A stretch of 17,566 bases of DNA from a virus (Duplodnaviria > Heunggongvirae > Uroviricota > Caudoviricetes). Numbering within the stretch: position 1 is the stretch's first letter; every line of letters starts with the position of its first letter. A program made the translations under genes and the position numbers. Below, piece after piece: positions 988-17,566 of this stretch. The stretch lies in IMG/VR virus record IMGVR_UViG_3300029071_000015; one strand, given 5' to 3'. The notes under the pieces are model-generated. The model made no database searches. It was given only the letters and a program-made list of their open reading frames with translations, and was not told the DNA's origin.

Positions 988-988
988 T

Positions 989-2698: not shown

Positions 2699-2806
2699 TG
2701 CGCTGCCATTTCTGTCGTCATTCTGCGCATACCCGCACCGGCAAGCACAGCACCGGCTGTTGTCCGAAAAGTTAAAGGCTGTTACAGCTCACCATTCAAC
2801 CATTAA
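2695..2806 (+). pseudogene. ogr/delta-like zinc-finger late activator gene with internal deletion and frameshift
   Basis: Starts MMRCHFCRHSAHTRT (CxxC zinc-finger start like Ogr/delta) and terminates early; its 3' end in another frame encodes KVKGCYSSPFNH*, matching the C-terminus KVQGCYSSPFRH* of the intact copy at 12450..12689. About 110 bp here versus 240 bp in the intact copy. Confidence 0.55.
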
Positions 2807-2820
2807 TCAGGAGACGGGGT

Positions 2821-3393
2821 GTGACTACAATGTCATTACAGCAGGCTTTTGAGGTCTGCCAGAATAATAAAGCGGCATAGCTTCAGCGCAAAAATGAACT
2901 AGCGGCAGCCGAACAGGAATATCTGCGGCTTCTGTCCGGGGAAGGCAGGAATGTCAACCGGCTGGACGAATTACGCAATATTATCGAAGTCAGAAAATGG
3001 CTGGTGAATCAGGCCGCCGGTCGTTATATTCGTTCGCATGAAGCCGTTCAGCACATCAGCATCTGCGACCGGCTGAATGATTTTATGCAGCAGCACGGCA
3101 CAGCACTGGCGGCCGCACTGGCACCGGAGCTGATGGGCTACAGTGAGCTGACGGCCGTTGCCCGAAACTGAGCCATACAGCGTGCCACAGATGCCCTGCG
3201 TGAAGCCCTCCTGTCCTGGCTTGCGAAGGGTGAAAAAATTAATTATTCCGCACAGGATAGCGACATTTTAACGGCTATCGGATTCAGGCCTGACGAGGCT
3301 TCGGTGGATGACAGCCGTGAAAAATTCACTCCTGCGCAGAACATAATTTTTTCCCGTAAAAGTGCAGAACTGGCATCACGTCAGTCTGTGTAA
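2821..3393 (+). pseudogene. psu: psu (polarity suppression protein) pseudogene with two in-frame stop codons
   Basis: A 573-nt frame (190 codons plus stop, GTG start with RBS aggagacgggGTG) alignable along its length to the intact Psu at 12705..13271 (roughly 60% identity by eye); TAG at 2878..2880 where the intact copy has Trp, and TGA near 3170 where a sense codon is expected. Confidence 0.75.
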
Positions 3394-3423
3394 AATTCCC
3401 CGAAAATCCGCCTGTTTTTACTG

Positions 3424-3458
3424 AAAAAAGCCATGCATCGATAAGGTGCATGGCTTTG
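3424..3458 (+). terminator. Putative intrinsic terminator downstream of psu (element 2 copy)
   Basis: Hairpin gccatgca-tcgataagg-tgcatggc followed by ttt; a homologous hairpin follows the intact psu at 13311..13346. Confidence 0.35.
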
Positions 3459-3557
3459 CATGCGTTTTCCCGCCTCATTTCCTGCAGATCACGCCGCACC
3501 CGGCGCGGCCTGAGCGTGTCAGTGCAACTGCATTAAAACCGCTCCGCAAAGCGGGCG

Positions 3558-3576
3558 GGCGAGGCGGGGAAAGCAC
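3558..3576. other. cos site (19-nt P2/P4-type cohesive-end sequence)
   Basis: ggcgaggcggggaaagcac is identical to the P2/P4 cohesive-end sequence as I recall it, and sits downstream of psu as in P4. Confidence 0.6.
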
Positions 3577-3603
3577 TGCGCGCTGCAAATTAATACTAGC
3601 TTA

Positions 3604-4167
3604 TTAAGCATCCGCTTCAAATCCTCCAAGATCGATTTGCTCTTCGATTTCAGGAGTCCAAAGTAATTCTTCTGGCGTAGCGTTTGACCAAAGCAATTTA
3701 CCATTCTCGATAACATACTTAACCGGTATTTTAGGATTGTTTATGTCTTTACCATCTCTTTCATGCCATTGTCTCTCCCATTTATCATAGAAGACTTCCA
3801 AATCACCGGGCATGAGTAAATAAACTGAACGGATAGTGATATTACTATAAATTGCGAACACCCATGGAACCTGCCTATATTTCGCAATTATTGTTGGATT
3901 CATATGATGGTGAGTTGAAAAACTTTTAGTTAACTCAACATTAACTGATTTTAATTCAAACTCAGTACCAGTGACATCTACTGCATCATTACCTTCTCGC
4001 CCAGGAAGAACTTTAAGACTGAGAAGTAAAAGAACTTGCAGGAGTTTCCCTCCGTTATCTTGGAATATATCATTGATTCCGTGCTTATTAGCTAACCGTT
4101 GATATTCTTCAACCTGAGGCCAAAGCGCAATTAAATTTGACCAATCTTGATGCAACTCAAATTTCAT
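3604..4167 (-). CDS. Type II restriction endonuclease, PvuII-like (PD-(D/E)xK)
   Basis: 187-aa ORF; segments [51 protein letters not shown] and DKWER match my recollection of R.PvuII, including the catalytic D...E-x-K; ATGA overlap with the upstream C gene; divergent from the methyltransferase. Confidence 0.75.
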
Positions 4168-4400
4168 ACCTGATTATTCTCCAACAGGGAACTGGGAGAG
4201 ACGCCAAGGGCTGAAGCAATTCGGTCGATATTATCAATGGAAATATTTCTTTCACATCGCTCTACTGATCCGATGTAAGTTCTATGCAAGCCTGCTAAGT
4301 CAGCCAAGGCTTCTTGAGACAACCCTTGTCTCTCCCTTAACTTTCTGATGTTATGGGCAAAAATCACTCTTGCTCTTGAGGGGTTTATCTTTCGTTCCAT
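4164..4400 (-). CDS. Controller (C) protein of restriction-modification system, XRE-family HTH
   Basis: 78-aa ORF with a helix-turn-helix region ([41 protein letters not shown]) resembling C.PvuII-type controller proteins; sits immediately upstream of and overlaps the endonuclease gene. Confidence 0.8.
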
Positions 4401-4427
4401 TCGCGAGACAATGCAGCCTTGATGACA

Positions 4428-4452
4428 ATAGATCTACAGACTATGAGTAGCA
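4428..4452. promoter_or_regulatory. Putative C-box operator in the divergent M/C-R intergenic region
   Basis: The 55-bp intergenic region contains dyad-symmetric elements (tagatcta; actatgagt, i.e. ACT-N3-AGT) just upstream of the C gene start, where C-protein operators normally lie. Confidence 0.4.
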
Positions 4453-4455
4453 GTT

Positions 4456-5430
4456 ATGACATTTGACAATAAAAAACCTGCGTACAAAACAGATTTGGGT
4501 GCAATGTACATTGCTGACTCGCTTGAAATGCTTAAATCGATGCCAGACAACAGCTTAAATTTAGTGATGACAAGCCCACCTTTCGCATTACAGCGTAAGA
4601 AAGAATATGGTAATCACGATCAAGAACAGTACATCGATTGGTTTTTAAAATTCGGCGAGCTGATTTTTAAAAAGCTAAAAGATGATGGTAGCTTTGTCGT
4701 CGATTTTGGTGGTGCTTACATGAAAGGAGTGCCTGTTAGAAGTGTCTACAACTTCCGGGTTTTGATCAGGATGATTGATGAGGTTGGGTTCCATCTGGCT
4801 GAGGACTTCTATTGGTTTAACCCTTCAAAACTACCAAGTCCTATTGAGTGGGTTAACAAAAGAAAGCTGCGTGTTAAAGATTCTGTTAACACAATTTGGT
4901 GGTTTAGCAAAACCGAATGGCCAAAGTCAGATATAACTAAAGTTCTTGTTCCCTATAGTGATAGGATGAAAAAACTTATTGAAGACCCTAATAAATATTA
5001 TTCCCCCAAAATGCGTCCATCAGGGCATGATATAAGCAGCAGCTTTGGCAAAGATAATGGCGGTGCTATACCTCCAAATTTATTGCAAATTCCCAACTCC
5101 GAATCTAACGGTGGATATTTATCGAGTTGTAAAAAAATTGGCGTTAAGGGGCATCCAGCACGATTCCCATCTAAATTGCCGGAGTTTTTCATTACAATGT
5201 TAACAGAGCCGGGTGATCTTGTTGTAGATATTTTTGGCGGTTCAAATACAACTGGAAGTGTTGCTGAACGATTAAAACGCAAATGGCTTTCATTTGAAAT
5301 ATTACCTGAATATGTAGCCGCATCTGTATTTAGATTTACAGATAAAAATACAAGTCAAGATATACTTCAAGAGATGTATGACACTATATTAAATGGAAAT
5401 ACTCTCGATTTATGCGCCAAAGAGAAATAA
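4456..5430 (+). CDS. DNA methyltransferase, beta-class amino-MTase (likely N4-cytosine, M.PvuII-like)
   Basis: 324-aa ORF; motif IV TSPPF near the N-terminus and motif I FGGSNTTG near the C-terminus (the circularly permuted order typical of beta-class N4C/N6A MTases); divergently arranged to the C-R genes. Confidence 0.8.
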   Translation: MTFDNKKPAYKTDLGAMYIADSLEMLKSMPDNSLNLVMTSPPFALQRKKEYGNHDQEQYIDWFLKFGELIFKKLKDDGSFVVDFGGAYMKGVPVRSVYNFRVLIRMIDEVGFHLAEDFYWFNPSKLPSPIEWVNKRKLRVKDSVNTIWWFSKTEWPKSDITKVLVPYSDRMKKLIEDPNKYYSPKMRPSGHDISSSFGKDNGGAIPPNLLQIPNSESNGGYLSSCKKIGVKGHPARFPSKLPEFFITMLTEPGDLVVDIFGGSNTTGSVAERLKRKWLSFEILPEYVAASVFRFTDKNTSQDILQEMYDTILNGNTLDLCAKEK

Positions 5431-5505
5431 GGTCAAATCGTAGTTAGCTAATTCGTAAAGAAAGCCAGTCATAGAGTCAGATTGGCTTTCTATCAGCATA
5501 AATAA

Positions 5506-6764
5506 TTAAGCATGAAGTTTTGCGTAGTCAAATGGACTAATAGGTTTAATCTTGTTTGCATCAAGATAATCAGCCCACCATTGAACCATTAATCGCCTTT
5601 CATCCAAATGTTCAGGGGTATGAATATAAGCTGCCCTAACACTATTACGCTCAGAATGACTCAACTGACGTTCTATCGCGTCATCACTCCATAGCCCCGA
5701 CTCCCCCAACGCACCACGTGCCATATTCCTAAAACCATGACCACAGACTTCCGTTTTTGTGTTATATCCCATCGCACGCAATGCATTGTTTACCGTATTT
5801 TCACTCATAACCTTAGCTGCGTCATGATCTCCCGGGAAAAGAAGCTCTTTATCACCACTAATCTGCTCAAGCTGTACTAACAACATCATCGCCTGCTGGC
5901 TAAGTGGAACTATATGCTCCTCTTTCATTTTCATGCCGCGATACGAGTAACGCACACCTTTAATTTCTTCACGTTTTGCCGGAATACGCCAAATAGCGTT
6001 ATCAAAATCAAATTCTTTCCAACGAGCAAAACGCAATTCGCTTGAACGAACAAAAGTTAGTAAAGAAAGCTCAACCGCAATTTTCGTCATCATACGACCA
6101 CGATATGCAGCAAGACGCGCCAAGAACTCAGGGAAACGATGTGAGGGTAGCGCCGGATAGTGCCGCATTTTAGATGTCGATAACGCTCCAGCCATATCAC
6201 TTGCAGGATTCGAGTCTATATAATCGTTCTGTACGGCATAGCGCATAATAGTAGTGACACGTTGCTGAAGACGCTGCGCTACATCATGCTTACCACTGGC
6301 ATCAACTTTTTTATCGGAGCTAGAAGATGACTAGTTTTAAGCTGTCGGATATCAGACGAGCCAATATAAGGGAAGATATAAAGCTCTAGATAGCGAAGAA
6401 CGCGCCCCCGATGATCCTCGCTCCAACGTTTGTTGCTGGCATGCCATTCACGGGTAATAGTTTCAAAATTATAAGTACCAGCATTCTCTGCTTGGGCCTC
6501 TTTTCGTACTGCTTTTGGATCTATGCCGTGTGCCAGCAACTTTTTCGCTTCATCCCTTCTCGTTCTAGCTTCAGCAAGCGTCACGGTCGGCCAAACACCA
6601 AAAGCAAGACGATCCTCTTTTTTGTCGGAGGGGCGTCTGTATTTCATACGCCAATATTTAGAGCCTTTGATAGAAACCTCAAGATACAAACCGCCACCAT
6701 CAGCCATTTTGTAGGTTTTGTCTTTTAGCTTTGCGGTCTCGACTTGTCTGGCGTTGAGCTTCAT
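5506..6764 (-). pseudogene. int: P4-family tyrosine integrase, frameshifted (split into 6279..6764 and 5506..6246 ORFs)
   Basis: The two ORFs together align along the intact integrase at 16301..17566 (roughly 85-90% identity); the nucleotide alignment shows a 1-bp deletion near 6270..6290 (ttttttatcgg versus ttttttaatcgg in the intact copy) that breaks the frame. Confidence 0.8.
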
Positions 6765-7111: not shown

Positions 7112-7129
7112 GAACTTAATCCCCACAAA

Positions 7130-7415
7130 AAAGTTTTTTTGCATTTAACTGTTCATACTGTTCACCTTGGTTATTTCTCATTTTATATCATGCAGTTAAG
7201 TGATGATGAGTTGGTGAAGGGTGAACAGTCGACTCTTCACCTTTGTTCGTTTTACTCATTCTGGGGGGGCCCCGTCAGGCGATACACGGGGGGATAAAAA
7301 GTTTTTTCCGGTTTTACTGTTCACACTGTTCACCTCTGGTTTTTTATCAATAATTTCATGGTGATACAGGGTGAACATACGGTGAAGGGTGAACAGTGGA
7401 GTGTTCACCCTGTGG
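7130..7415. promoter_or_regulatory. crr-like cis replication region: two ~120-bp direct repeats containing TGTTCACC-type iterons in both orientations
   Basis: Unit 1 (about 7130..7245) and unit 2 (about 7296..7415) each contain aaaaagttttttt, ctgttcaNactgttcacc and ggtgaagggtgaacag; TGTTCACC is the P4 alpha-protein type I iteron; located just past the 3' end of the primase gene, as crr is in P4. Confidence 0.55.
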
Positions 7416-7461: not shown

Positions 7462-9795
7462 TTATGCCTCTGCGGGGTCGTCGCACTTCGGCAGCCAGTC
7501 GCCGTAGCTTTCCTCTTTCAGCGACAGGTTAGTCTGTATCCCCTGCTTTGTGTGCCGCTTCTCATAATTCAGGCCGTACTCTTTCAGCATCATGGGCAGC
7601 CCCAGCCCGAACATTTTCAGGCTGAGTACGTTCCTGTACCCGTTAGCCTCCATATAGGCCAGATACGCGTGATAGAGATATTTACGGTAATTACGCGGGA
7701 TGATGCTGGCATTCCCCATAAACATCCCGTTGGTCTGCGGGAGCATTTCCAGATAGCCGCAAAAATCAAACGTCGGGTCAGCATCGCGCTTGATGCTGAG
7801 CGCCTCGTCGGAGTTCTGCTGCGACTGGAGCAGTGCGCGCGCTGCCATCGGGTCGCTGAATTTCTGCATAAGCTGGCGCACAATCACGGCCAGCTCACGC
7901 GCAATTTTATCCCTGAGCTGCGGGTCGCGTTCCTCCGGCGCAATCTGCTCCGGGAAGTGGATAATCACCCGGCGGCGCGACACACCGCCGCTGCGGTCGG
8001 TGAAGCGCATGGGGTTATTGTTCACGGCCAGAATCACCGCCGGAATATGTGTTGAGTATGGGTTCTGGTATTTCGGGTCAACTGAGACCGCATCGCCGCC
8101 GGTGATGGCCTTAAGTCCTGCGCCGTCACCGCTCCATTTTTCCTGGTCTGGCAGACGGATTAGCGAGAAGCCAATCAGGGAGGCACGCTTGCGCGGGTCT
8201 TCCAGTGTGTCGATATCGGCCGACGTGGCGTTATCTTCCCCGGCGAGCAGGGTCGCGATTTCGGCCAGAATACTTTTGCCGCTCCCGCCGGGGCCGGTGA
8301 CTTCGAGAAAGAGCTGCCAGTCGTAGCGGTTCGCCAGTACCATAAACAGCGCGGCCAGAATCACGTCGCGTTTTTGTGGATTTTTGCCGGCCGCACGGTC
8401 GAGCCAGCGCCAGAAGTTCGGCGAGTGAGTCTCCAGCGTTTCCCCGTCCACCGGTGGGGTGAAATCCACGTCGCACAGCGTGCGCAGCCAGTGTGATTTA
8501 CTGTGCGGGCTGAACAGGCCGCTCTGGGTATCGAGTACCCCGTTGCGAAAGCCAATCAGACGACGCGCCGGTGTATCCTGCTGCGGAATAATCAGTTTCA
8601 GGGTCTCCACCACCGAGGCAATTTTCCCCGATGAGAACGGGGCGCGCAGACGCTGGAATAAGTCAGCCACATTCCGTGAAAAAGTGGCGGCAGGGATATT
8701 TTTCCAGATGCCGTTTTCATAGCGGGACAGGAGCTGGCCGTTTGCATCCACCGCCAGCGCTTCGCCGTAATGCTCATGCACCCGCAAGGCCTTGTCGCTG
8801 GCGCTCATGGCGGTAAATTCCGCCTCGCTCATGGTATCAAACGGGCTTTGCGCCGGTGGCCGGATAGCGTCATAAATGGCTTTGCGTGTCGCATCCTCAC
8901 CATTCTGCATAAACGCATCATTCCAGTCACCGAACACCGGCGGCAGGGCGACAATGCCCTCACAGGCTTCTGCGGCCGCGGCGGCTTTACTCTGGCCGTC
9001 GCCGTTAAGGTCACGGTCGGCGGCGAGCACAATCTGACAGGCCGGGTGTTTTTGTCGGGCAAGGCTCGCCAGAGAAAGGAGGTTCACGGAGGACAGCGCC
9101 ACCATGACGGTTTCGCCGGTCAGGTGATGCACGGTGAGCGCGGTCGCATAACCCTCCGCTATCCACAGGCGCTTTCCCGCCTGTTTTTTCCCTTCGATGA
9201 TGTGGCACGCTCCTTTTACCGCCCCGCCTTTCAGGGTGCGTTTGAGACCGTCAGAATTAATAAGCTGAACGTTAACCAGCGCCCCGGCATCGTCATACAG
9301 TGGGACAACCATATCACCGGCGCGGAACGTCACACCGCCGGTTTTGTGTGTGGCCGTCAGCATGACACACTCATGACCGGGGAATCCCTTGCGGGTGAGG
9401 TAGGCATTGCCGCTGGCCGGTCGGGTTTTCTCCATGAGCCTGACGGCCAGCGCGGCCGCCGCCTGGCGGTCAACCTCCGTTTCTGCTTCTGCGGCCGCAA
9501 TCACTTCCGGGGCAACCGGCGGCAGGTTGCCGGTCACGGCGTTCACCTTTTGAGCTGCCTCTGACGGATTTACACCGAACACCTTTTCAACCAGCTTAAG
9601 CCCGTCACCTGCGCCACACTGATTGCAAAACCACGTCCCGCGCCCTTCTTTATCATCAAAGCGGAAACGGTCAGAGCCGCCACACACCGGGCAGGACTGA
9701 TGGCGGTTTTTAATCACCTTCACACCCAGCGCAGGGAGAATGTGCGGCCAGTGGCCGCAGGCCTGTTTTACCGTTTCTGTTACGTTCATTTTCAT
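7462..9795 (-). CDS. P4 alpha-like primase-helicase (zinc-binding primase, P-loop NTPase)
   Basis: Long ORF; start chosen at MKMNVTETV with RBS gagggagaaaacaaccATG; N-terminal zinc-finger CPVCGGSDRF...FCNQCG; Walker A GPGGSGKS; size comparable to P4 alpha. Confidence 0.9.
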   Translation of the reverse strand: MKMNVTETVKQACGHWPHILPALGVKVIKNRHQSCPVCGGSDRFRFDDKEGRGTWFCNQCGAGDGLKLVEKVFGVNPSEAAQKVNAVTGNLPPVAPEVIAAAEAETEVDRQAAAALAVRLMEKTRPASGNAYLTRKGFPGHECVMLTATHKTGGVTFRAGDMVVPLYDDAGALVNVQLINSDGLKRTLKGGAVKGACHIIEGKKQAGKRLWIAEGYATALTVHHLTGETVMVALSSVNLLSLASLARQKHPACQIVLAADRDLNGDGQSKAAAAAEACEGIVALPPVFGDWNDAFMQNGEDATRKAIYDAIRPPAQSPFDTMSEAEFTAMSASDKALRVHEHYGEALAVDANGQLLSRYENGIWKNIPAATFSRNVADLFQRLRAPFSSGKIASVVETLKLIIPQQDTPARRLIGFRNGVLDTQSGLFSPHSKSHWLRTLCDVDFTPPVDGETLETHSPNFWRWLDRAAGKNPQKRDVILAALFMVLANRYDWQLFLEVTGPGGSGKSILAEIATLLAGEDNATSADIDTLEDPRKRASLIGFSLIRLPDQEKWSGDGAGLKAITGGDAVSVDPKYQNPYSTHIPAVILAVNNNPMRFTDRSGGVSRRRVIIHFPEQIAPEERDPQLRDKIARELAVIVRQLMQKFSDPMAARALLQSQQNSDEALSIKRDADPTFDFCGYLEMLPQTNGMFMGNASIIPRNYRKYLYHAYLAYMEANGYRNVLSLKMFGLGLPMMLKEYGLNYEKRHTKQGIQTNLSLKEESYGDWLPKCDDPAEA

Positions 9796-9809
9796 GGTTG
9801 TTTTCTCCC

Positions 9810-10130
9810 TCAGTGCAGTACCGGCGCGGTGATATGACGGGCGCAAAGCTCATCCATCACGGCCAGCCCGAGAAAGGACAGCGACGGCGCGGCTTTGAGT
9901 GGTCCGGCTTCCATTAAATCCTCCAGTAGTGCACAGGCAATCTGGCGGCCTTTTTCCTCGCCGTGCTGGCGCAGGTAGAAGCCCTCCAGTTCGGCGGCAA
10001 TAGTGCTTTCCAGCGCGTCGAGGGTGAGGTGTGGATGGCGGTGCTGACGTTCGCACAGGGTCAGCCATGCACAGGCCACGGCGCGACGATACAGCGCGGC
10101 GCGTAATACGGGCGGTAATGGCTTTTTCAT
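9810..10130 (-). CDS. Hypothetical protein, P4-family early-operon gene upstream of primase
   Basis: 106-aa ORF ending 14 nt upstream of the primase start; ATGA overlap with the preceding gene suggests an operon. Confidence 0.5.
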
Positions 10131-10354
10131 ACGTTACCCTCCCCGGTCAGCCAGTGCTGATTGCAGCGTTCTACCACGCCGTCGAGCTGGGCAGTCATGA
10201 GATAAATCACGGAGGTGAGCTGTAACTGCTGCGCCGGGTCACGCCTAACGGTCGCGCAGTCCTGCACCTGCATCAGGTCGCCGACGAGCTGGCCGACATT
10301 GCGCATATGCTCCAGACATTCGAGGTCACGGGCGGTAATGGTGGTGTGTCTCAT
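10127..10354 (-). CDS. Hypothetical small protein (early operon)
   Basis: About 75-aa ORF; start placed at the second ATG, which overlaps the stop of the upstream small ORF (gcATGAgacac). Confidence 0.45.
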
Positions 10355-10545
10355 GCGCACACCTCCGCAACCGGCAGACGGCCAGCGAACGAGAGAAAGT
10401 AATCGCGAACGAGAGAAAGGCGAGCGGCGTGCTCATCACCGGCAACGGTGCGAAGCATACAGATACGGGGTTTACGGTCTGCGCGACGAACGGCGGCAAA
10501 CACAAAGACAAACTGCGGGTGTGACGGGGTGAGGGTCGTAGCCAT
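10351..10545 (-). CDS. Hypothetical small protein (64 aa)
   Basis: Short version of the 183-aa ORF, starting at MATTLTPSH with GGAG about 9 nt upstream; the longer form would overlap the AlpA-like gene and an apparently non-coding region. Confidence 0.3.
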
Positions 10546-10747
10546 AGCGGCAATCTCCAATAAGTAGCGGTTATCGCCACCACAAGAGCTGCAAATCTCA
10601 TGGGTGGTAGCCCGGACAGGGTTTGCAGTACCGGCCTTATTGGAAACCGGCCAGCCCGAAGGCTGCCCCGCCCGGACCACCATTATCTGACAGGAGCCAC
10701 GGTGTAAGCACCACAGCCCGAAAAATAGGTGTGTCTGAGCAACGACA

Positions 10748-10770
10748 TAAAAAAACACGCTCGGCGCGTG
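10748..10770 (-). terminator. Putative intrinsic terminator (minus strand) downstream of the AlpA-like gene
   Basis: 6-bp stem acacgc/gcgtgt with 5-nt loop, followed on the minus strand by a run of 7-8 U. Confidence 0.35.
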
Positions 10771-10898
10771 TTGTGTCGCCAATAAGTTACACGGGCTGCA
10801 AATCCCGGCTGCCGATTTTGCGACAGCGGGAAAACTATACCTGGAAACGGCGAAAAGAAGCAAGCCAGAAAAAGGGGCTGTTTGCTGAACGGTCATCA

Positions 10899-11165
10899 TC
10901 ACGCGTCATAGCCCTGGTTACGTTCGGCAATGCGATCCGCCATCCATGCAGTGATTTCAGACTGCGCCCACGCCACATTTTTTCCGCCGAGGGAGATTTG
11001 TTTCGGGAAGGCTTCCCGGCTGATAAGGTCGTAAATGGTCGAACGGGACAGGCCGCACAGATGCATCACTTCGGGCAGACGGATAAAGCGCTCGTGAACG
11101 GTATCAGAAACCGGCATCAGCGGCGCGGCAGGGGCAGAAGACGGGGAAGAAAAAGCGGTGTGCAT
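10899..11165 (-). CDS. AlpA/Vis-family phage transcriptional regulator (excisionase-like HTH)
   Basis: 88-aa ORF containing [42 protein letters not shown], typical of AlpA-family proteins; RBS gaggtagcccgATG; the true start may be the internal Met (MPVSD). Confidence 0.75.
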
Positions 11166-11294
11166 CGGGCTACCTCATAAAGTCCATACAGTGCCGGTCG
11201 TGTCCGTCCGGCTTCGGGTAACTCCTTATTATGTCTATATTTTTCCTCAGGTCATGTGAGATTTTCGGGGAAACAAACATTGACTTTTCCCTAT

Positions 11295-11331
11295 GGCAAA
11301 CAAAGGCAAACGCTGGCAAACATATGCAAAT
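11295..11331. promoter_or_regulatory. Four 7-bp direct repeats (GGCAAAC x3, TGCAAAT) at exact 10-bp spacing: putative operator array
   Basis: Repeats start at 11295, 11305, 11315 and 11325; one helical turn apart; in the divergent regulatory region between the AlpA-like and sid-like genes. Confidence 0.4.
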
Positions 11332-11339
11332 CACTGCAT

Positions 11340-11540
11340 TACAATGCAGCAATTTCTATTTCTTTTAGTTATATATTTTTTATTTTTAATCGAAATAAAA
11401 TCTAGATGCTATAGCCAGGGCAAAACAGGAGGGTGAACAGTGGTGAACAGTCGGTGAACAGTCAGACCCTCAACTGTTCACCATTTAACTTACTGTATTA
11501 CTTATCTTTTTATTTAAGGTGAACAGTGGTGAATAGTTAT
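11340..11540. promoter_or_regulatory. ori-like region: AT-rich stretch plus cluster of GGTGAACA/TGTTCACC iterons
   Basis: AT-rich 11340..11410; iterons gggtgaacagtggtgaacagtcggtgaacagt...ctgttcacc (11432..11483) and ggtgaacagtggtgaatagt (11517..11538); same octamer as in the crr-like region. Confidence 0.5.
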
Positions 11541-11612
11541 AAGTAAAAAAACAAACGGTGAGTTAGATTTTCCTGCGACCTTTCTCTGGCCAGCCTGATT
11601 TTAAGGTCTGTT

Positions 11613-11630
11613 TGTGCCAGCACTCTGACA
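11613..11630 (+). promoter_or_regulatory. TGT-N12-ACA element, candidate Ogr/Delta-activated late promoter site (Psid-like)
   Basis: tgtgccagcactctgaca lies ~75-90 bp upstream of the sid-like start; P2/P4 late promoters carry a TGT-N12-ACA activator site around -55. Confidence 0.3.
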
Positions 11631-11702
11631 ACGGTAATGAATCGTGTTGTTGTGCAGGAGGCGTCAGAATCATTTCAGGTTGAACACACGGAGAGCCTGA
11701 AC

Positions 11703-12446
11703 ATGAAACCCGAACTCATTATCAAAGCCATGCAGACCGTTATCAGTAAACAGGATGAAGGCGCGGAACAACGCATTGCCGGTGCGCTGGCCGCACTTAA
11801 CGAAGCAAAAGACGCATACATGGCCAGCATGGAAAAACTCAGCGACATTGAGGCTTCCATTCAGCGTTGTGAGCAGGAACGACAGACTGCCCTCAGTGAA
11901 AGCGCACAGGCCGAACAGGACTGGCGCAGCCGCTTTCGAACCCTGCGTGGCAACCTCACTCCTGAACTGAAAGCTGAACACAGTAAGCGTATCGCCAGCC
12001 GCGAACTGGCTGATGAGTTCACCGGTCTGATTACCGAGCTCGAGAAAGACAAAAGCCTCGCCATGCTTGGCGCATGCTCCTCCGGTACGGCTTATATCCG
12101 CGCCCATGAAAAAGCATTCACCACTTACGCCAACAGCGAGTGGAAGAAGGCGCAGGCCGGAATCAGCCCCGCACTGTTACGTGCCTTCCTGTTGCGTATA
12201 CGGTCGCTGGAAATGAGTGGGGAAACCTCGCCGCGCGCGACCGTGAATCGCGAGCTGGGTGATGCACTTAATATGCAGTCAGCCCTGTATCATTTTAATA
12301 TTACACAGGAGCCGGTTCTGTCCGTAACGGGCATGAATCGTCCGGTAATTACCGGGGTTGATATGGAACTGTTCAAAAGCCCCGCCAAACGGATGAAGCT
12401 TGCCGCTGAACTGGCAGCCAAAAACCCTGAACAGGCGGAGGGCTGA
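11703..12446 (+). CDS. Sid-like protein (putative capsid-size-determination / external scaffold), divergent
   Basis: About 247 aa from the internal Met with RBS ggagagcctgaacATG; coiled-coil-like, Ala/Glu/Gln-rich; sits immediately upstream of delta and psu as sid does in P4; C-terminal segment (EPVLSVTGMNRPVITGVDMELF) shows weak resemblance to the P4 Sid C-terminus seen at 2567..2698. Confidence 0.55.
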   Translation: MKPELIIKAMQTVISKQDEGAEQRIAGALAALNEAKDAYMASMEKLSDIEASIQRCEQERQTALSESAQAEQDWRSRFRTLRGNLTPELKAEHSKRIASRELADEFTGLITELEKDKSLAMLGACSSGTAYIRAHEKAFTTYANSEWKKAQAGISPALLRAFLLRIRSLEMSGETSPRATVNRELGDALNMQSALYHFNITQEPVLSVTGMNRPVITGVDMELFKSPAKRMKLAAELAAKNPEQAEG

Positions 12447-12449
12447 ATT

Positions 12450-12689
12450 ATGTTTCACTGCCCGTTCTGCAAAAAGACCTCGCATGTCCGAACCAGCCGG
12501 TATCTGTCGGAAAACGTCAAACAGCGTTATCACCAGTGTACCAATATCGAATGCTCGGCCACTTTCCGCACCATCGAGTCTGTTGACGGTGTGATACGTG
12601 CCGCACCGGAGAAAACCGACCCCGCCCCGGTGACGCCAGCGCCGCCGCGTAAAGTACAGGGCTGCTACAGCTCGCCGTTCCGGCATTAA
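12450..12689 (+). CDS. Ogr/Delta-family zinc-finger late transcription activator
   Basis: 79-aa ORF MFHCPFCKKTSHVRTSRY...YHQCTNIECSATF with the CxxC...CxxC arrangement of P2 Ogr / P4 delta; starts 3 nt after the sid-like stop. Confidence 0.85.
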   Translation: MFHCPFCKKTSHVRTSRYLSENVKQRYHQCTNIECSATFRTIESVDGVIRAAPEKTDPAPVTPAPPRKVQGCYSSPFRH

Positions 12690-12704
12690 TCAGGAGAGAG
12701 ACAC

Positions 12705-13271
12705 GTGACCACTGTGACATTGCAGCAGGCCTTTGAGGCCTGTCAGACGAACAAAAACACCTGGCTGAAACGTAAAGCCGAACTGGCCGACCTTGAACTT
12801 GAATACCGTGAACAGCTCCTTGCCGGTGACGAACAAATCCCGCGCAAAATGCAGGATTTGCGCGACAATATCGACGTGAAAAAATGGGAGATTAATCAGA
12901 CTGCCGGTCGCTATATCCGCTCACATGAGGAGGTGCAGCACATCAGCATTCGCAACCGGCTCAATGACTTTATGCAGCAGCACGGCGCGGAGCTGGCCGC
13001 CACGCTGGCACCTGAGCTGATGGGATATCACGAACAGCTTCCCGCAGTAAAACAGAGCGCCATGCAGCACTCGGTTGATTATCTGCGTGAAGCCCTGTCG
13101 GTGTGGCTGGCCGCCGGTGAAAAAATTAATTATTCCGTGCAGGACAGCGATATTTTAACGGCCATCGGATTCAGGCCTGATGCGGCTTCGCGGGATGATA
13201 GTCGCGAAAAATTCACCCCGGCACAGAACCTGATTTACACCCGCCGACGTGCAGAACTGGCCACACGGTAG
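12705..13271 (+). CDS. psu: Psu-like polarity suppression protein
   Basis: 188-aa ORF (GTG start with RBS caggagagagacacGTG) with conserved blocks AGRYIRSHE.VQHISI, RLNDFMQQHG, LAPELMGY, GEKINYS.QDSDILTAIGFRPD and DSREKFTPAQN matching my recollection of P4 Psu and the pseudogene copy at 2821..3393. Confidence 0.85.
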   Translation: MTTVTLQQAFEACQTNKNTWLKRKAELADLELEYREQLLAGDEQIPRKMQDLRDNIDVKKWEINQTAGRYIRSHEEVQHISIRNRLNDFMQQHGAELAATLAPELMGYHEQLPAVKQSAMQHSVDYLREALSVWLAAGEKINYSVQDSDILTAIGFRPDAASRDDSREKFTPAQNLIYTRRRAELATR

Positions 13272-13668: not shown

Positions 13669-14748
13669 ATGAATGTAGGGCATCTCAATTTTTTCAAGGT
13701 TAATAAGTGCGGTTTATACAAGGTAAATGATGACAATACCTATGGTTTAGAACTAAGCGAAACATTTGACCTCATACAGGATTGGGTAGGAACTAAACCT
13801 CTTGCACTCACCATACCATGGGACCCAAAAGAAAAACCCAATAGATCAAAGTGTTATTGTAAAGACATCTACAAAGATGAAAATACTGGTGATTTTTTAA
13901 TCATGTTATGGAAATCTGATACTGATAGTACTGGTTCTTTATTAGGAGCGAGTGAAGACGGTGAAATCGGAAGTTCATCAGTGGTTAAATATACTAATAG
14001 CTACAGAGGGAAAAAAGTCATCTGGGGTCGCCCATGCTTTTATTGGGTTATACCTGAACTTGAAACTATAGTTTCTATTAAATTCGATCATTCTGTTTGT
14101 GACTCTGAACTATTTCAAGATTATGTACACTCATCTATTACTAATAGAGTTAAACATAGCAAAAGAGTTAAAAATAAAACCGAGAAAGGTTATATAAGAT
14201 TATCTAATACTGATGACGAAGATTTATATAAATACATGTACAGATTTGATATGAAGCTCCGAAGCTTAGAAACCACTCATGCTGAGTTAGGTAAATTGAT
14301 ATCAAAAATAACACATATTGTTCGCAGAGAAACCATTATTATAAATCCAAATGACGCACGAGCTGATTGGTTAAAGACTTTTAGCACTCTCGTTCCATTT
14401 GTGTCCGGAAAGAAAAACACCAGAACAAGACAGATTGAAATAAAAGCAGAAGCGAAGCCATCCTTGAAAGAAGTTCAAGAAATAATTGAAAAACATTCTG
14501 CTGAGGATAGAGAAAAACGTCTTTGGGATAATGTGGGATTTGCGACGGACAAGGGCATAACATGGGTGGATAAATATAGAATGCGTGATATTCTCAATGT
14601 CCCTTCCGAAGACTATTCGACATATACCGCTGCATATATCTACGAACACATATCACACAAAAGAAAAGAATTCATTTCCCCTATATTAAAAGAGCTAAAA
14701 GCATTAAAATCTCAATCAAGAATAAAGAAAGCATCTGGAGAGGATTGA
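13669..14748 (+). CDS. Hypothetical protein (cargo gene A, 359 aa, soluble, Lys-rich)
   Basis: Long ORF with RBS aaggaaagagcATG; AT-rich codon usage contrasting with the satellite backbone; no catalytic motif I can recognise; stop directly abuts the next start (TGAATG). Confidence 0.7.
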   Translation: MNVGHLNFFKVNKCGLYKVNDDNTYGLELSETFDLIQDWVGTKPLALTIPWDPKEKPNRSKCYCKDIYKDENTGDFLIMLWKSDTDSTGSLLGASEDGEIGSSSVVKYTNSYRGKKVIWGRPCFYWVIPELETIVSIKFDHSVCDSELFQDYVHSSITNRVKHSKRVKNKTEKGYIRLSNTDDEDLYKYMYRFDMKLRSLETTHAELGKLISKITHIVRRETIIINPNDARADWLKTFSTLVPFVSGKKNTRTRQIEIKAEAKPSLKEVQEIIEKHSAEDREKRLWDNVGFATDKGITWVDKYRMRDILNVPSEDYSTYTAAYIYEHISHKRKEFISPILKELKALKSQSRIKKASGED

Positions 14749-15285
14749 ATGTTAAAAGCTATAGTAGGCCTCGTCAAATACACATGGATATACATAGCAA
14801 TATTCATTATATCGCTATTGGTCATTTTACCATCCGATATTTACTATGTGTATAACGATTTTGCTAACTATTGCACTCTTCTCGTATCAGTTTCTGGAAT
14901 GGTTTTTACTATTATGGGGATTTGGTTAGCGTTTCTTTATCCAAATGCTTTGCAGCGTATTGTTAACCCCAAAACTATAGAAACTGTTGATTTCACCGAA
15001 CAACTGGAAGATACAAAAAGGTTAGAAGCAATAGTTGGAAGTGTTCTAAAATCATCTTTCGTTATGATTACTTTACTTGTTGTATATTTAGTTAAACTAG
15101 TATTTTTCAAGAGTCATCTTTATTTAGAGAGTCAAGAAGTAATAAAAGACATATCTTTAGCATTAATTATTGCCATTTCATACATGCAGATTGAGGCAGT
15201 GATTAGTGTAATACTAGCTAATGTTATGTTTATCAATGATTTACATAATAAGCGAGAGCAAAGAGACATCGACGATCAAGTATGA
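14749..15285 (+). CDS. Hypothetical integral membrane protein (cargo gene B, 178 aa, ~4 TM helices)
   Basis: Four hydrophobic segments (WIYIAIFIISLLVIL, LLVSVSGMVFTIMGIWLAFLY, FVMITLLVVYLVKLVFF, LALIIAISYMQIEAVISVILANVMFI); translationally coupled to gene A. Confidence 0.7.
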   Translation: MLKAIVGLVKYTWIYIAIFIISLLVILPSDIYYVYNDFANYCTLLVSVSGMVFTIMGIWLAFLYPNALQRIVNPKTIETVDFTEQLEDTKRLEAIVGSVLKSSFVMITLLVVYLVKLVFFKSHLYLESQEVIKDISLALIIAISYMQIEAVISVILANVMFINDLHNKREQRDIDDQV

Positions 15286-15292
15286 GGAAAAA

Positions 15293-16246
15293 ATGAAAAA
15301 AAACATACGAGTTATACCTAAAAACATTCATAACAAGTTAAAAAGGCTTGGCAATGCAGTTGTTGCTGGCACTTCCATCGCATTTACAGAAGACCAATTA
15401 AAAAATGGTATACTAGAGCACCTTGGAATATACTTTGATAATGGTGTTAATGCTTATGAGACGTCGGTTATACCCGATCCATTGCAAGGCAAATATTCAT
15501 TCAAAAATGTTTTCGGTGAAGAAATCGTAAGAAAAGACCTTCCAAAAGAAACTCATTACACTGAAATTGAGTCACCTAACTGGGGTGATAGTTCTAACGG
15601 TACGCATACTGTTAGATTACCTCACGAGAAATACCCCAGAGATATTATCCCACCAAGACTCATAGCAATTGAAATTAATCACAAACAGTCTTCGGACAGT
15701 CATTTCATATTTAATTTCAGAGTAACTAGAATTTTAGAAAAAAAATCAACCAAGTTTCATGATGAATTATTATTCGACTTAAATCTTCTTCAAGAAAATA
15801 TTGGGAAGTGTGGGATTGAGAATGCTGATAAACCTATATCGACTTATGCTGACACACTCATAGTATCATGGGACATATTTCCACCAGGTAGTAAAGAGGA
15901 AGTTTTAGCAAGAATCTTTAGAGGGAAAAATATCACTACAGATAAGAAAAGTGTTGCTGAAAACAGATATGACTTCTTTATGAGCCTTGATCCTAAAAAA
16001 ATTGTCACAGGTAATAGTACGTTCAGTAATTATATTGGAGCTATGCTAGAGGACGACCTGGTTGTTTTTGAAAATATAGAATATGGTAATGCAATATATA
16101 TCCTCTATGATAACTGGGATGAAATCAGCAAGCTATCTCGAATCGATTTGTTATCAGGAAGAGCAGGCAATAATTTCGATAGAATAATTCATAGTGGTAA
16201 TTGGAAAGACGAGGTGCGAAAAAAAGTTACTAATGGAAGATTATGA
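15293..16246 (+). CDS. Hypothetical protein (cargo gene C, 317 aa, soluble)
   Basis: Start placed at MKKNIRV with RBS tatgaggaaaaaATG, 7 nt after the gene B stop; the longer listed ORF (from 15221) would overlap gene B; followed by a strong terminator. Confidence 0.65.
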   Translation: MKKNIRVIPKNIHNKLKRLGNAVVAGTSIAFTEDQLKNGILEHLGIYFDNGVNAYETSVIPDPLQGKYSFKNVFGEEIVRKDLPKETHYTEIESPNWGDSSNGTHTVRLPHEKYPRDIIPPRLIAIEINHKQSSDSHFIFNFRVTRILEKKSTKFHDELLFDLNLLQENIGKCGIENADKPISTYADTLIVSWDIFPPGSKEEVLARIFRGKNITTDKKSVAENRYDFFMSLDPKKIVTGNSTFSNYIGAMLEDDLVVFENIEYGNAIYILYDNWDEISKLSRIDLLSGRAGNNFDRIIHSGNWKDEVRKKVTNGRL

Positions 16247-16300: not shown

Positions 16301-17566
16301 CTATTGTTTTTTGTTTATTTTAGCAAAATCATAAGGTGTAACTGTTTTGCTTTCATTTGCTTTGAGGTAATCAGCCCACCATTGCACCATCAAGCGACGC
16401 TCATCCAAATGCTCAGAGGTATGAATATACGCAGCACGTACATTATTTCTTTCCGAATGGCTCAACTGCCGTTCAATCGCGTCATCACTCCATAATCCTG
16501 ACTCACCCATAGCACCACGTGCCATCGTTCTGAATCCATGCCCGCAAACTTCAGTTTTCGTGTCATAGCCCATCGCACGCAGGGCGCTATTTACCGTGTT
16601 TTCACTCATAACCTTAGTTGCGTCATGATCCCCAGGAAACAGCAGCTCTTTATCACCACTAATTTGCTTGAGCTGCTCTAATAAAACCATCGCCTGCCGA
16701 CTGAGAGGAACGATATGCTCCTCTTTCATCTTCATGCCACGGTATGAGTAACGCACGCCTTTAATTTCTTCTCGCTTTGCCGGTATGCGCCAAAGAGATT
16801 TATCGAAGTCGAATTCATCCCAACGCGCGAAACGTAACTCACTGGAACGCACAAAAGTTAGTAAGGAAAGCTCGACAGCGATCCGTGTCATTACACGGCC
16901 ACGATAAGCAGCAAGCCGAGCAAGAAACTCAGGGAACCGGCTTGAGGGTAAAGCGGGGTAATGTCGCGCTTTGGTTGTCGATAGCGCACCGGCCATATCA
17001 CTGGCTGGATTTGATTCGATGTAATCGTTCTGTACGGCATAACGCATGATCGCCGTGACGCGCTGTTGCAAGCGCTGAGCGACGTCATGCTTTCCACTGG
17101 CATCAACTTTTTTAATCGGGGCTAACAGGTGGCTGGTTTTGAGCTGGCGAATGTCGGACGAACCGATATGAGGAAAAATATAAAGCTCAAGATATCGAAG
17201 AACGCGCGATCGATGGTCTTCACTCCATCGCTTGTTACAGGCATGCCATTCACGAGCAATGTTTTCGAAAGTATATGCCCCTGAATTCTCGGCTTGAGCT
17301 TCTTTCTGTTCGGCTTTTGGGTCAATGCCCTGCACTAACAGCTTTTTAGCTTCATCGCGCTTTGCTCTTGCCTGAGCAAGAGTCACTGTAGGCCAAACAC
17401 CAAAAGCAAGGCGATCCTCTTTTTTGTCTGAGGGGCGTCTGTATTTCATGCGCCAGTATTTAGAACCCTTGGCCGACACTTCAAGATACAACCCCCCGCC
17501 ATCGGCCATTTTGTAGGTTTTGTCTTTCGGCTTTGCGGTCTCGACCTGTCTGGCGTTGAGCTTCAT
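16301..17566 (-). CDS. int: P4-family tyrosine integrase (site-specific recombinase), intact
   Basis: 421-aa ORF; catalytic HxxR (HGFRTMARG) and C-terminal Tyr region (VRAAYIHTSEH); start codon is the last three bases of the window, so the promoter, att site and presumed tRNA lie beyond the window. Confidence 0.9.
   Translation of the reverse strand: MKLNARQVETAKPKDKTYKMADGGGLYLEVSAKGSKYWRMKYRRPSDKKEDRLAFGVWPTVTLAQARAKRDEAKKLLVQGIDPKAEQKEAQAENSGAYTFENIAREWHACNKRWSEDHRSRVLRYLELYIFPHIGSSDIRQLKTSHLLAPIKKVDASGKHDVAQRLQQRVTAIMRYAVQNDYIESNPASDMAGALSTTKARHYPALPSSRFPEFLARLAAYRGRVMTRIAVELSLLTFVRSSELRFARWDEFDFDKSLWRIPAKREEIKGVRYSYRGMKMKEEHIVPLSRQAMVLLEQLKQISGDKELLFPGDHDATKVMSENTVNSALRAMGYDTKTEVCGHGFRTMARGAMGESGLWSDDAIERQLSHSERNNVRAAYIHTSEHLDERRLMVQWWADYLKANESKTVTPYDFAKINKKQ

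What the first reader, a model, noticed from the sequence alone, without database searches (positions are those of the whole stretch)
11340..11540. ori-like iteron cluster with adjacent AT-rich tract in the sid-upstream regulatory region
Seen in sequence: at least five GGTGAACA/TGTTCACC octamers in both orientations within about 110 bp, preceded by a strongly AT-rich stretch (11340..11410) that could act as a DNA-unwinding element. Position relative to sid matches where I recall the P4 origin lies. Together with the crr-like region this indicates element 1 retains all cis-acting replication sequences.
Basis: partly seen in the sequence, partly recalled or inferred. Interest (0 to 1): 0.4.

Follow-up and report, generated by a model that had tools for sequence, protein, structure and literature searches.

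The report
P4-type satellite replication origin (ori1)
This is the ordinary replication origin of a P4-like phage satellite: six binding sites for the satellite's own primase-helicase, laid out as in phage P4. Next to it lies a repeat array that looks like a sensor for a phage-186-type helper rather than a P2-type one.

Summary
GGTGAACA/TGTTCACC occurs 11 times in the window (0.44 expected), in two clusters. One cluster is the finding: five exact copies at 11432-11525 plus a 7/8 copy at 11528.

Spacing (10, 11, 22, 43, 10 bp) and orientations are identical to the six "ori type 1 repeats" annotated in P4 (X51522). The 121-bp core is 99/121 identical to P4. The cognate alpha primase-helicase is 85% identical, and its origin-binding domain is 94/100 identical to PDB 1KA8. 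The crr and cnr are present. About 60 Enterobacterales loci keep the same architecture. This is therefore a P4-family ori1: known biology, a new member.

The 11340-11410 tract is the least stable duplex in the window, but its sequence is not conserved.

Side result: where P4 has its "type 2 repeats" (which match P2 cox-boxes), this element has four phased TGGCAAAC repeats (11293-11332). These match the annotated Apl operators of phage 186 (44.6 bits; shuffle maximum 23.3), which suggests helper-specific sensing.

The parts
11425..11545 (.). ori1 core: six type-1 iterons plus the internal 35-bp AT-rich spacer
   Evidence: Ungapped 99/121 identity to P4 9303-9423. Lies under the annotated P4 rep_origin and 'ori type 1 repeat' x6. 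Conserved in 61 related loci.
11432..11439 (-). type-1 iteron 1 (TGTTCACC read on the minus strand, the orientation convention of the P4 record)
   Evidence: Exact match. Aligns to the P4 repeat at 9310-9317.
11442..11449 (-). type-1 iteron 2
   Evidence: Exact match. Aligns to P4 9320-9327.
11453..11460 (-). type-1 iteron 3
   Evidence: Exact match. Aligns to P4 9331-9338.
11475..11482 (+). type-1 iteron 4 (inverted relative to the others)
   Evidence: Exact match. Aligns to P4 9353-9360, which is annotated on the opposite strand to the other five.
11483..11517 (.). 35-bp AT-rich spacer between iterons 4 and 5 (14% G+C); best candidate for the origin's functional AT-rich or melting element
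   Evidence: 32 of 35 positions identical to P4 (spacer strings; alignment). About 90% per-column conservation across 61 loci. Core ACTGTATTAC..TTATCTTTTT retained at alpha 57% identity. Tenth least stable 40-mer of the window.
11518..11525 (-). type-1 iteron 5
   Evidence: Exact match. Aligns to P4 9396-9403.
11528..11535 (-). type-1 iteron 6, 7/8 match (GGTGAATA on the plus strand)
   Evidence: One-mismatch hit. Aligns to P4 9406-9413. GGTGAATA is also the family consensus at this position.
   Evidence: Least stable 40-mer of the window at 11351-11390. AT-richness is kept as composition in nearly all relatives (G+C 0.16-0.41), but the sequence is alignable in only 30-55% of loci.
11293..11332 (+). 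four phased 10-bp repeats (TGGCAAACAA AGGCAAACGC TGGCAAACAT ATGCAAATCA) at the position of the P4 'ori type 2 repeats' (cox-boxes); predicted Apl-type (phage 186-like helper) binding array upstream of PLL
   Evidence: Repeat family D2. A matrix built only from Eganvirus Apl arrays gives 44.6 bits here, the best array in the window; shuffles give mean 10.8, maximum 23.3. Matches the Eganvirus attP-arm array and the annotated 186 Apl sites.
11228..11255 (-). candidate PLL promoter (-35 ATGACC, -10 CATAAT) driving vis and the leftward operon
   Evidence: Consensus scan. Aligns to the conserved stretch upstream of P4 orf88/vis. This is an inferred promoter, not a shown one.
11262..11279 (.). TTT-N12-ACA, a degenerate late-activator (Ogr/delta-type) site for PLL
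   Evidence: Aligns to P4 TGTTCAGGCTGTCTTACA at 9134-9151. Read directly from the sequence. The role of TGT-N12-ACA sites comes from my own knowledge.
11613..11630 (.). TGT-N12-ACA, late-activator site of Psid
   Evidence: Pattern hit. Aligns to P4 TGTGTCAGGGCTGGCACA at 9493-9510. The pattern count in the window is not above chance, so the assignment rests on position and alignment.
7127..7414 (.). crr (cis replication region): two ~120-bp direct repeats carrying type-1 iterons, downstream of alpha
   Evidence: 83% identity to P4 crr 4291-4590, with iterons in the same places. Six exact and two one-mismatch octamers.
7462..9795 (-). alpha: primase, SF3 helicase and origin-binding protein (777 aa from the second in-frame start; the ORF extends to 9846)
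   Evidence: 85% identical to P4 alpha over 777 aa without gaps. Pfam Zn-ribbon, Toprim, D5_N, DUF5906 and Pox_D5 domains. C-terminal 100 aa are 94% identical to PDB 1KA8. Catalytic motifs present.
9810..10130 (-). cnr (copy-number regulator, DUF5375)
   Evidence: 91% identical to P4 ORF106. Full-length Pfam DUF5375 match.

Best explanation
Window 11425-11545 is the ori1 origin of a P4-family phage satellite integrated in an enterobacterial chromosome. The six TGTTCACC-type iterons are spaced at multiples of about 10.7 bp, so they lie on one face of the helix. They are the binding sites for the C-terminal winged-helix domain of the element's own alpha protein (7462-9795). Alpha bound at ori1, together with the second iteron cluster (crr, 7127-7414) about 4 kb away, melts an adjacent AT-rich stretch. 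The conserved 35-bp spacer at 11483-11517 is the most likely site. Alpha then acts as its own helicase and primase, so that host polymerase can start theta replication after excision or on helper infection. Cnr (9810-10130) limits the process. What is shown here: the identity of sequence, spacing, orientation and position with the annotated P4 origin; the cognate protein and partner site; and conservation across the family. What is inferred from published P4 work: binding, melting, priming and ori-crr cooperation.
For: Statistics: 11 octamers against 0.44 expected, in two clusters.

Homology with P4: blastn of the region hits only P4, under 'origin of DNA replication | ori type 1 repeat (x6)'. 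The P4 repeats at 9310, 9320, 9331, 9353 (inverted), 9396 and 9406 have the same spacing and orientation as window 11432, 11442, 11453, 11475 (inverted), 11518 and 11528. The core is 99/121 identical ungapped (alignment).

Initiator and partner site: alpha is 85% identical to P4 alpha with no gaps. Its origin-binding domain is 94/100 identical to 1KA8. Zn-ribbon, Toprim and Walker A motifs are intact. The crr is 83% identical with iterons in place. Cnr is 91% identical.

Family conservation: 61 loci from Enterobacter to Yersinia have the homologous core upstream of alpha. Iteron columns are at least 90% conserved, and six GTGAA-core sites are almost universal. The iteron flanks drift in step with divergence of the origin-binding domain. 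The iteron core is the only part of the intergenic region shared by 931 of 5426 complete E. coli genomes.

[quoted passage not shown] The alpha domain structure is 1KA8 (PMC2777425).
Against: No functional data exist for this element. The sixth iteron deviates from P4 (GGTGAATA), although this is the family consensus. The element lies beside the remnant of a second island (split integrase at 5506-6764), so its activity as a whole is unproven. Which AT-rich stretch melts is not known from anything computed here. The primary P4 papers on ori1 mapping could not be retrieved. The requirement for all six iterons and for crr therefore rests on my memory of that literature.
Confidence: 0.9

Rival explanations
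1. One reading: the left AT-rich tract at 11340-11410 is the origin's DNA-unwinding element. Alpha bound at the iterons would open it, as DnaA does with the 13-mers of oriC.
For: It is the least stable 40-bp duplex in the entire window. It sits 22 bp from iteron 1. A low-G+C stretch at this position is kept in nearly all relatives (minimum 60-bp G+C of 0.12-0.35).
Against: Its sequence is not conserved; it is alignable in only 30-55% of loci. The internal 35-bp spacer is conserved almost base for base. The tract lies between the PLL-upstream Cox/Apl-type array and the iterons. According to PMC3936717, Cox filaments protect at least 70 bp and grow away from PLL, so the tract may belong to that regulatory region or be a simple linker. 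From memory (Tocchetti et al. 1999, unverified here), the minimal ori1 is 123 bp and includes a 35-bp AT-rich region, which leaves no room for this tract.
Confidence: 0.2
2. The iterons work mainly as a regulatory or copy-control site rather than as the place of initiation. Alpha bound at ori and crr would loop or 'handcuff' the DNA, or would modulate the flanking PLL and Psid promoters.
For: The cluster sits between two divergent late promoters. A second cluster (crr) exists 4 kb away. Iteron plasmids generally use the same sites for initiation and for handcuffing (general knowledge). The title of Yeo et al. 2002 speaks of regulation of DNA binding by homo- and heterodimerisation.
Against: The P4 record annotates this exact stretch as the origin. 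Control functions would be additional to initiation, not an alternative to it. Nothing computed here points to promoter overlap: the iterons are about 130 bp or more from either predicted -35.
Confidence: 0.07
3. It is a decayed relic: the sequence descends from a P4 origin, but the element is a defective prophage remnant whose origin no longer fires.
For: P4-like elements are very common and some are degraded (PMC8628076). A neighbouring island has a split integrase. Sid, delta and Psu are highly diverged from P4 (31%, 41% and 64%).
Against: Every replicon part is intact: alpha is full length with catalytic motifs, and cnr, crr and five perfect iterons are present. The immunity RNA (C4) and int are also intact. 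An IMG/VR viral contig encodes Vis, Sid, delta and Psu 100% identical to the window's (L150), so the same variant occurs elsewhere. Divergence of sid, delta and psu is normal variation within the family.
Confidence: 0.08
4. The octamers are a chance or low-complexity repeat with no specific function.
For: None beyond the short length of the motif.
Against: 0 of 200 shuffles reach the observed count. Spacing is identical to P4. The cluster is conserved in 61 loci.
Confidence: 0.01

Closest known systems
Bacteriophage P4 ori (ori1): X51522 rep_origin with six 'ori type 1 repeats' at 9310-9413
   Same: Same octamer, same number of sites (six), same spacing (10, 11, 22, 43, 10 bp), same orientation pattern, and the same 35-bp AT-rich spacer (32 of 35 positions identical). 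Same position between vis/PLL and Psid/sid. Same cognate alpha protein and crr partner.
   Different: The sixth iteron is GGTGAATA. The left flank (AT-rich tract and 10-bp repeat array) is not homologous in sequence. The 'type 2' repeats are replaced by a different motif.
P4 crr (cis replication region), X51522 4291-4590
   Same: Uses the same alpha-binding octamer. Present in the window at 7127-7414 with 83% identity.
   Different: The crr is a duplicated ~120-bp unit with about five iterons per unit in mixed orientation. It lies downstream of alpha and has no 35-bp AT-rich spacer. The finding is the ori1 partner, not a crr copy.
Iteron-type plasmid origins (for example pSC101, F, P1, RK2/R6K Rep-iteron origins)
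   Same: Clustered, helically phased initiator-binding repeats next to AT-rich DNA, with a winged-helix initiator domain.
   Different: The iterons are only 8 bp, against 17-22 bp in those plasmids. The initiator is itself the helicase and primase. Replication in P4 is reported to be independent of DnaA, DnaB and DnaG (my memory of the P4 literature). The origin is bipartite (ori plus a distant crr).
P2 cox-box array upstream of P4 PLL, and the phage 186 Apl operators (U32222 23056-23123 and 21075-21121)
   Same: The window array at 11293-11332 has the 186 Apl-site motif (TTGGCAAACA consensus), 10-bp phasing and at least four copies. It occupies the position of P4's cox-box-like type 2 repeats.
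   Different: It does not match the P2 cox-box consensus TTAAA(G/C)NC(A/C), scoring -0.3 against 33.5 for P4. It has four clear copies, where 186 has seven at pR-pL and five at attP. Binding by Apl, and any effect on PLL, are untested.

Membership tests
P4-family ori1 (type-1 iteron origin) | Six copies of the octamer TGTTCACC/GGTGAACA | tested here: met
   Five exact copies and one 7/8 copy. P4 has six exact copies.
P4-family ori1 (type-1 iteron origin) | Fixed spacing close to helical periodicity, with one inverted copy (P4: 10, 11, 22, 43, 10 bp; fourth copy inverted) | tested here: met
   Identical spacing and orientation, 10.67 bp per turn over nine turns.
P4-family ori1 (type-1 iteron origin) | 35-bp AT-rich region inside the iteron cluster | tested here: met
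   11483-11517, 14% G+C, 32 of 35 positions identical to P4 and conserved across the family. That this element is part of the minimal ori1 is from memory of Tocchetti et al. 1999.
P4-family ori1 (type-1 iteron origin) | Location between the divergent PLL (vis/orf88) and Psid (sid) transcription units | tested here: met
   vis/AlpA at 10899-11165 (minus); sid from 11703 (plus).
P4-family ori1 (type-1 iteron origin) | Cognate alpha protein with primase, SF3 helicase and a C-terminal winged-helix origin-binding domain | tested here: met
   85% identical to P4 alpha. Domains found by Pfam. Origin-binding domain 94/100 identical to 1KA8.
P4-family ori1 (type-1 iteron origin) | Second cis site (crr) with the same iterons downstream of alpha, plus cnr | tested here: met
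   crr 83% identical; cnr 91% identical.
P4-family ori1 (type-1 iteron origin) | Specific binding of alpha to the octamers, and alpha-dependent initiation at this site | not testable with these tools
   Needs EMSA or footprinting and a replication assay. Known for P4 only from the literature (PMC4234260).
P4 'ori type 2 repeats' / P2 cox-box array | Phased repeats matching TTAAA(G/C)NC(A/C) | tested here: not met
   Cox-box three-site array score is -0.3 in the window against 33.5 in P4. The window carries a different motif at that position.
Phage 186-type Apl operator array | Several direct repeats of the Apl recognition motif at 10-11 bp spacing | tested here: met
   Four sites at 11293, 11303, 11313 and 11323. 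They score 44.6 bits with a matrix built only from Eganvirus arrays; shuffle maximum 23.3. The annotated 186 sites were read.
Phage 186-type Apl operator array | Bound by Apl, with a regulatory consequence (here, activation of PLL) | not testable with these tools
   Inference by analogy with P2 Cox at P4 PLL (PMC3936717).
Classical DNA-unwinding element (for the 11340-11410 tract) | Helically unstable AT-rich DNA adjacent to the initiator sites | tested here: met
   Least stable 40-mer of the window, 22 bp from iteron 1.
Classical DNA-unwinding element (for the 11340-11410 tract) | Conserved across homologous origins and required for initiation | tested here: inconclusive
   The composition is conserved but the sequence is not. 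The requirement cannot be tested here. My recollection of the P4 deletion mapping argues against it.

The most novel reading that the evidence does not exclude
The stretch just left of the origin (11293-11332) may be a swappable helper-sensing module. P4 carries P2 cox-boxes there. This satellite, and about half of the P4-like loci sampled across Enterobacterales, carry phased copies of the phage-186 Apl operator motif instead, and other lineages carry further motifs. Each satellite lineage would then copy the excisionase/Cro-like operator of its own helper type, so that the helper's Cox or Apl protein switches on PLL, and with it alpha expression and ori1 firing. The cis sequence next to the origin would encode helper specificity. 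Array type does not follow Vis similarity. L197 and L199 have Vis 67-73% identical to the window's and share the window's array. P4 Vis is 69% identical, yet P4 has a different array. This argues for exchange or convergence rather than simple descent.
Probability: 0.5. Interest if true: 0.55.

Novelty: new member of a known kind. Interest (0 to 1): 0.22.

Why it matters
The finding itself matters little beyond annotation. It shows that this integrated P4-like satellite keeps a complete, probably functional replicon: alpha, cnr, ori1 and crr. That is the expected state for a family present in more than 30% of Enterobacterales genomes (PMC8628076).

Two by-products are more useful.

1. The comparison across about 60 loci singles out the 35-bp inter-iteron spacer, not the more conspicuous AT-rich tract, as the conserved AT-rich origin element. 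This is a concrete target for melting assays.

2. P4's 'type 2 ori repeats' read as P2 cox-boxes, and here an Apl-type array replaces them. If confirmed, the helper type that induces a given satellite could be predicted from sequence alone. That would help in pairing satellites with helpers in genomes and in engineering P4-based delivery particles.

Tried and rejected
1. Retrieving the primary P4 ori papers failed. I tried Tocchetti 1999, Ziegelin 1993 and 1995, and Lindqvist 1993 by DOI, PMC id and PMID. Full-text searches for P4 iterons, ori1 and the octamer gave nothing specific. Statements on the minimal ori1, ori-crr looping and host-factor independence are therefore marked as memory.

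2. I tested whether the 10-bp repeat motifs also occur near att sites, as expected if Vis (the excisionase) bound them. GGCAAAC in the window and CAYTTAAAG in P4 occur as arrays only in the ori/PLL region, and their overall counts are not above chance. There is no support for a Vis/att link.

3. TGT-N12-ACA as a statistical signal: 5 matches against 3.9 expected. It is not informative alone and was used only with alignment to P4.

4. I tried to find helper-phage counterparts for two other array classes (TATTGGCC type, ATGCCTACA type) by blastn against the phage collection. Only chance-level hits, or none, were found. The generalisation to all lineages is untested.

5. I looked by eye at the conserved spacer for a LexA box or an IHF site. 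It has only a half LexA-like CTGTAT and no IHF consensus. This was not pursued or formally tested.

6. No tRNA gene is present in the window, so the att site could not be anchored that way.

7. The sigma-70 scan gives only two promoter-like sites in 650 bp against 1.1 expected. The PLL assignment is therefore tentative.

Full report
**1. The observation**

The sequence at 11340-11540 is as described.
- GGTGAACA or its complement occurs 11 times in the 17.5-kb window, against 0.44 expected. None of 200 dinucleotide-preserving shuffles comes close.
- The copies form two clusters: six at 7159-7409 and five at 11432-11525.
- Allowing one mismatch adds a sixth copy (GGTGAATA) at 11528.
- The preceding stretch at 11340-11399 is 17% G+C.
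- By nearest-neighbour energies, 11351-11390 is the least stable 40-mer of the whole window.

**2. What it is**

blastn of the intergenic region against 50,697 phage records hits essentially only P4. The match lies under the features 'origin of DNA replication', 'ori type 1 repeat (x6)' and 'ori type 2 repeat (x3)'.

The P4 record places the six type-1 repeats at 9310, 9320, 9331, 9353 (opposite strand), 9396 and 9406. The window copies are at 11432, 11442, 11453, 11475 (opposite strand), 11518 and 11528. The spacings (10, 11, 22, 43, 10 bp) and the orientations are the same. Over nine helical turns this gives 10.67 bp per turn, so all the sites face one side of the helix.

The pairwise alignment is nearly perfect from iteron 1 to about 40 bp past iteron 6, with 99 of 121 positions identical and no gaps. 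This stretch includes the 35-bp AT-rich spacer between iterons 4 and 5.

The surrounding genes make the element a P4-type satellite:

| Feature | Coordinates (strand) | Identity to P4 |
|---|---|---|
| crr | 7127-7414 | 83% |
| alpha | 7462-9795 (-) | 85% |
| cnr | 9810-10130 (-) | 91% |
| C4-type immunity RNA | 10600-10687 (-) | not compared |
| isrK-type RNA | 10750-10827 (-) | not compared |
| vis/AlpA | 10899-11165 (-) | 69% |
| sid | from 11703 (+) | 31% |
| delta | 12450-12689 (+) | 41% |
| psu | 12705-13271 (+) | 64% |
| int | 16301-17566 (-) | 96% |

**3. The cognate protein and partner site**

- Alpha aligns with P4 alpha over all 777 residues without a gap.
- It has the Zn-ribbon, Toprim and SF3-helicase domains and motifs.
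- Its last ~100 residues are 94% identical to the crystallised P4 origin-binding winged-helix domain, PDB 1KA8.
- The crr downstream of alpha aligns with the annotated P4 crr, with iterons in the same places.
- Open literature states that alpha binds the origin repeats through this domain and then unwinds and primes (PMC4234260; PMC2777425).

**4. Conservation**

A scan of one genome per species with the alpha protein returned 80 loci, from Enterobacter and Citrobacter (96% identity) to Yersinia and Serratia (57%).
- An octamer cluster with the same spacing recurs about 1.65-2.6 kb upstream of alpha.
- nhmmer finds the homologous core upstream of alpha in 61 loci.
- Per-column conservation is at least 90% at the iterons, and about the same in the 35-bp spacer (core ACTGTATTAC..TTATCTTTTT).
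- The left AT-rich tract can be aligned in only 30-55% of the loci, although a low-G+C stretch is nearly always there.
- Six GTGAA-core sites are nearly universal. The flanking bases drift as the origin-binding domain diverges: GGTGAACA at 92% identity or more, mixed A/GGTGAACA at 70-77%, and GGTGAAG(A/G) at 61-67%. This is as expected for a protein and its sites evolving together.
- In complete E. coli genomes, 931 of 5426 match the region, but almost all match only window 11431-11590, that is the iteron core.

**5. Mechanism**

Shown here: sequence, layout, cognate protein, partner site and conservation.

Inferred from P4 work: alpha binds the phased iterons, cooperates with crr, melts AT-rich DNA, and loads itself as helicase and primase. 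Cnr restrains it.

Which AT-rich element melts is open. The comparative data favour the internal 35-bp spacer. My recollection of Tocchetti et al. 1999 is that the minimal ori1 is 123 bp, made of six iterons plus a 35-bp AT-rich region, and that deletions or 6-10 bp insertions inactivate it. That agrees with the comparative data, but the paper could not be retrieved.

**6. The left flank is probably promoter control, not origin**

P4's 'ori type 2 repeats' read CCAC-TTAAAGTCA-T-TTAAAGCCA-C-TTAAAGCAA. This fits the P2 cox-box consensus TTAAA(G/C)NC(A/C). Cox-boxes are spaced 10-11 bp apart, and P2 Cox binds them upstream of P4 PLL to activate the satellite (PMC3936717). The array score for P4 is 33.5.

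At the same position the window has TGGCAAACAA AGGCAAACGC TGGCAAACAT ATGCAAATCA.
- blastn of this array hit an Eganvirus (phage 186-like), Yersinia phage GCS667, directly after its int gene.
- The same phage has six or seven phased copies abutting apl in the apl-cI switch.
- The phage 186 record annotates 'Apl; 7 binding sites' and 'five binding sites for Apl excisionase at attP'. Both read as the same motif.
- A weight matrix built only from these helper-phage arrays (consensus TTGGCAAACA) picks 11293-11332 as the best four-site phased array in the window. It scores 44.6 bits, against a shuffle mean of 10.8 and a maximum of 23.3. P4 scores 4.9.
- Among viral contigs with at least four phased copies, the identifiable ones are either 186-type phages (array next to apl) or P4-like satellites (array between vis and sid).
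- About 24 of 52 P4-like loci carry an Apl-type array at this position. Only P4 carries the cox-box type, and other lineages have other 10-bp repeats.

The inference is that this satellite is switched on by Apl of a 186-type helper. It is untested. I found no description of it in the searchable literature, which is not proof of novelty.

**7. Comparison with the known, and verdict**

The finding is a member of the P4 ori1 family. All sequence-level defining features were tested and met. Binding and function cannot be tested here.

It differs from P4 in the sixth iteron and in the non-homologous left flank. It works like iteron plasmid origins, but with 8-bp sites, a self-contained initiator that is also helicase and primase, and a bipartite ori/crr design.

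- Novelty: new member of a known kind.
- Interest is low for the origin itself.
- Interest is moderate for the helper-sensing array, should it hold up.

Noticed in passing
window 11293-11332; P4 L001 9176-9205; L203 795-860 and 2501-2540; L204 1557-1624; L205 376-422: The position of P4's 'ori type 2 repeats' (which match P2 cox-boxes) is occupied here by four phased TGGCAAAC repeats. These match the annotated Apl operators of phage 186 and of an Eganvirus. About half of the sampled P4-like loci have Apl-type arrays there, and others have still different 10-bp repeats. This may be a helper-specific induction switch.
   Followed up: yes
window 11536-11600: The stretch between iteron 6 and the Psid activator site (TTATAAGTAAAAAAACAAACGGTGAG...TTTTCCTGCGACCTTTCTCTGGC) is conserved at about 80-95% per column across the family. 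That is as strong as the iterons. I could not assign it a function.
   Followed up: no
window 11334-11349: A perfect 6-bp-stem palindrome, CTGCATTACAATGCAG, lies between the Apl-type array and the AT-rich tract. It is flagged as terminator-like on both strands and is partly conserved in close relatives. It may be further (inverted) boxes of the array or an insulator.
   Followed up: no
window 11637-11703 and 9796-9846: The mechanical ORFs overcall two starts. The sid ORF begins at 11637, only 7 bp downstream of the Psid activator site at 11613-11630 and therefore upstream of the expected transcription start. The in-frame ATG at 11703 with a GGAG upstream gives 247 aa (P4 Sid is 244 aa). The alpha ORF starts at 9846, but homology to P4 begins at residue 18, giving 777 aa.
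   Followed up: partly
window 7462-13271: Mosaic divergence from P4. The replication module and integrase are close (alpha 85%, cnr 91%, int 96%, ori core 82%, crr 83%). The capsid-hijacking module is remote (Sid 31%, Psu 64%). Delta is a single 79-aa Ogr-like domain, where P4 has a 166-aa tandem form.
   Followed up: partly
window 10351-10902: The 183-aa 'Ash family' ORF overlaps, on the same strand, a C4 antisense/CI immunity RNA (10600-10687, 85.9 bits) and an isrK-type RNA (10750-10827, 72 bits). As in the old P4 'cI protein' annotation, part of this ORF is probably not a protein-coding gene.
   Followed up: no
window 13669-15285: The psu-int variable 'hotspot' encodes two proteins that match the PADLOC candidate defence system PDC-M18 (M18A at 1.5e-38, M18B at 9.6e-16). 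A third ORF (15221-16246) has no match.
   Followed up: partly
window 1-6764: Upstream of the satellite lies the end of another integrated island. It carries a PvuII-type restriction-modification system (endonuclease 3604-4167, HTH controller 4164-4400, methylase 4456-5430) and an HNH protein (815-1297). It also has a P4-type integrase split into two ORFs (6279-6764 and 5506-6246, minus strand). This points to tandem islands at one att site, with the first integrase inactivated.
   Followed up: no
L150 (IMGVR_UViG_3300029079_000055); L002 (Enterobacter sp. UNJFSC 003): An IMG/VR viral contig encodes Vis, Sid, delta and Psu 100% identical to the window's. The closest genome locus is in Enterobacter (alpha 96%). 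The best complete E. coli genome is only 96.8% identical over the intergenic region. The window is therefore probably not from a common E. coli lineage.
   Followed up: partly
L197, L199 (viral contigs): These P4-like satellites have alpha only 58% identical to the window's, yet they carry four perfect GGCAAAC boxes at the same place. The array type does not track the divergence of the replicon.
   Followed up: partly
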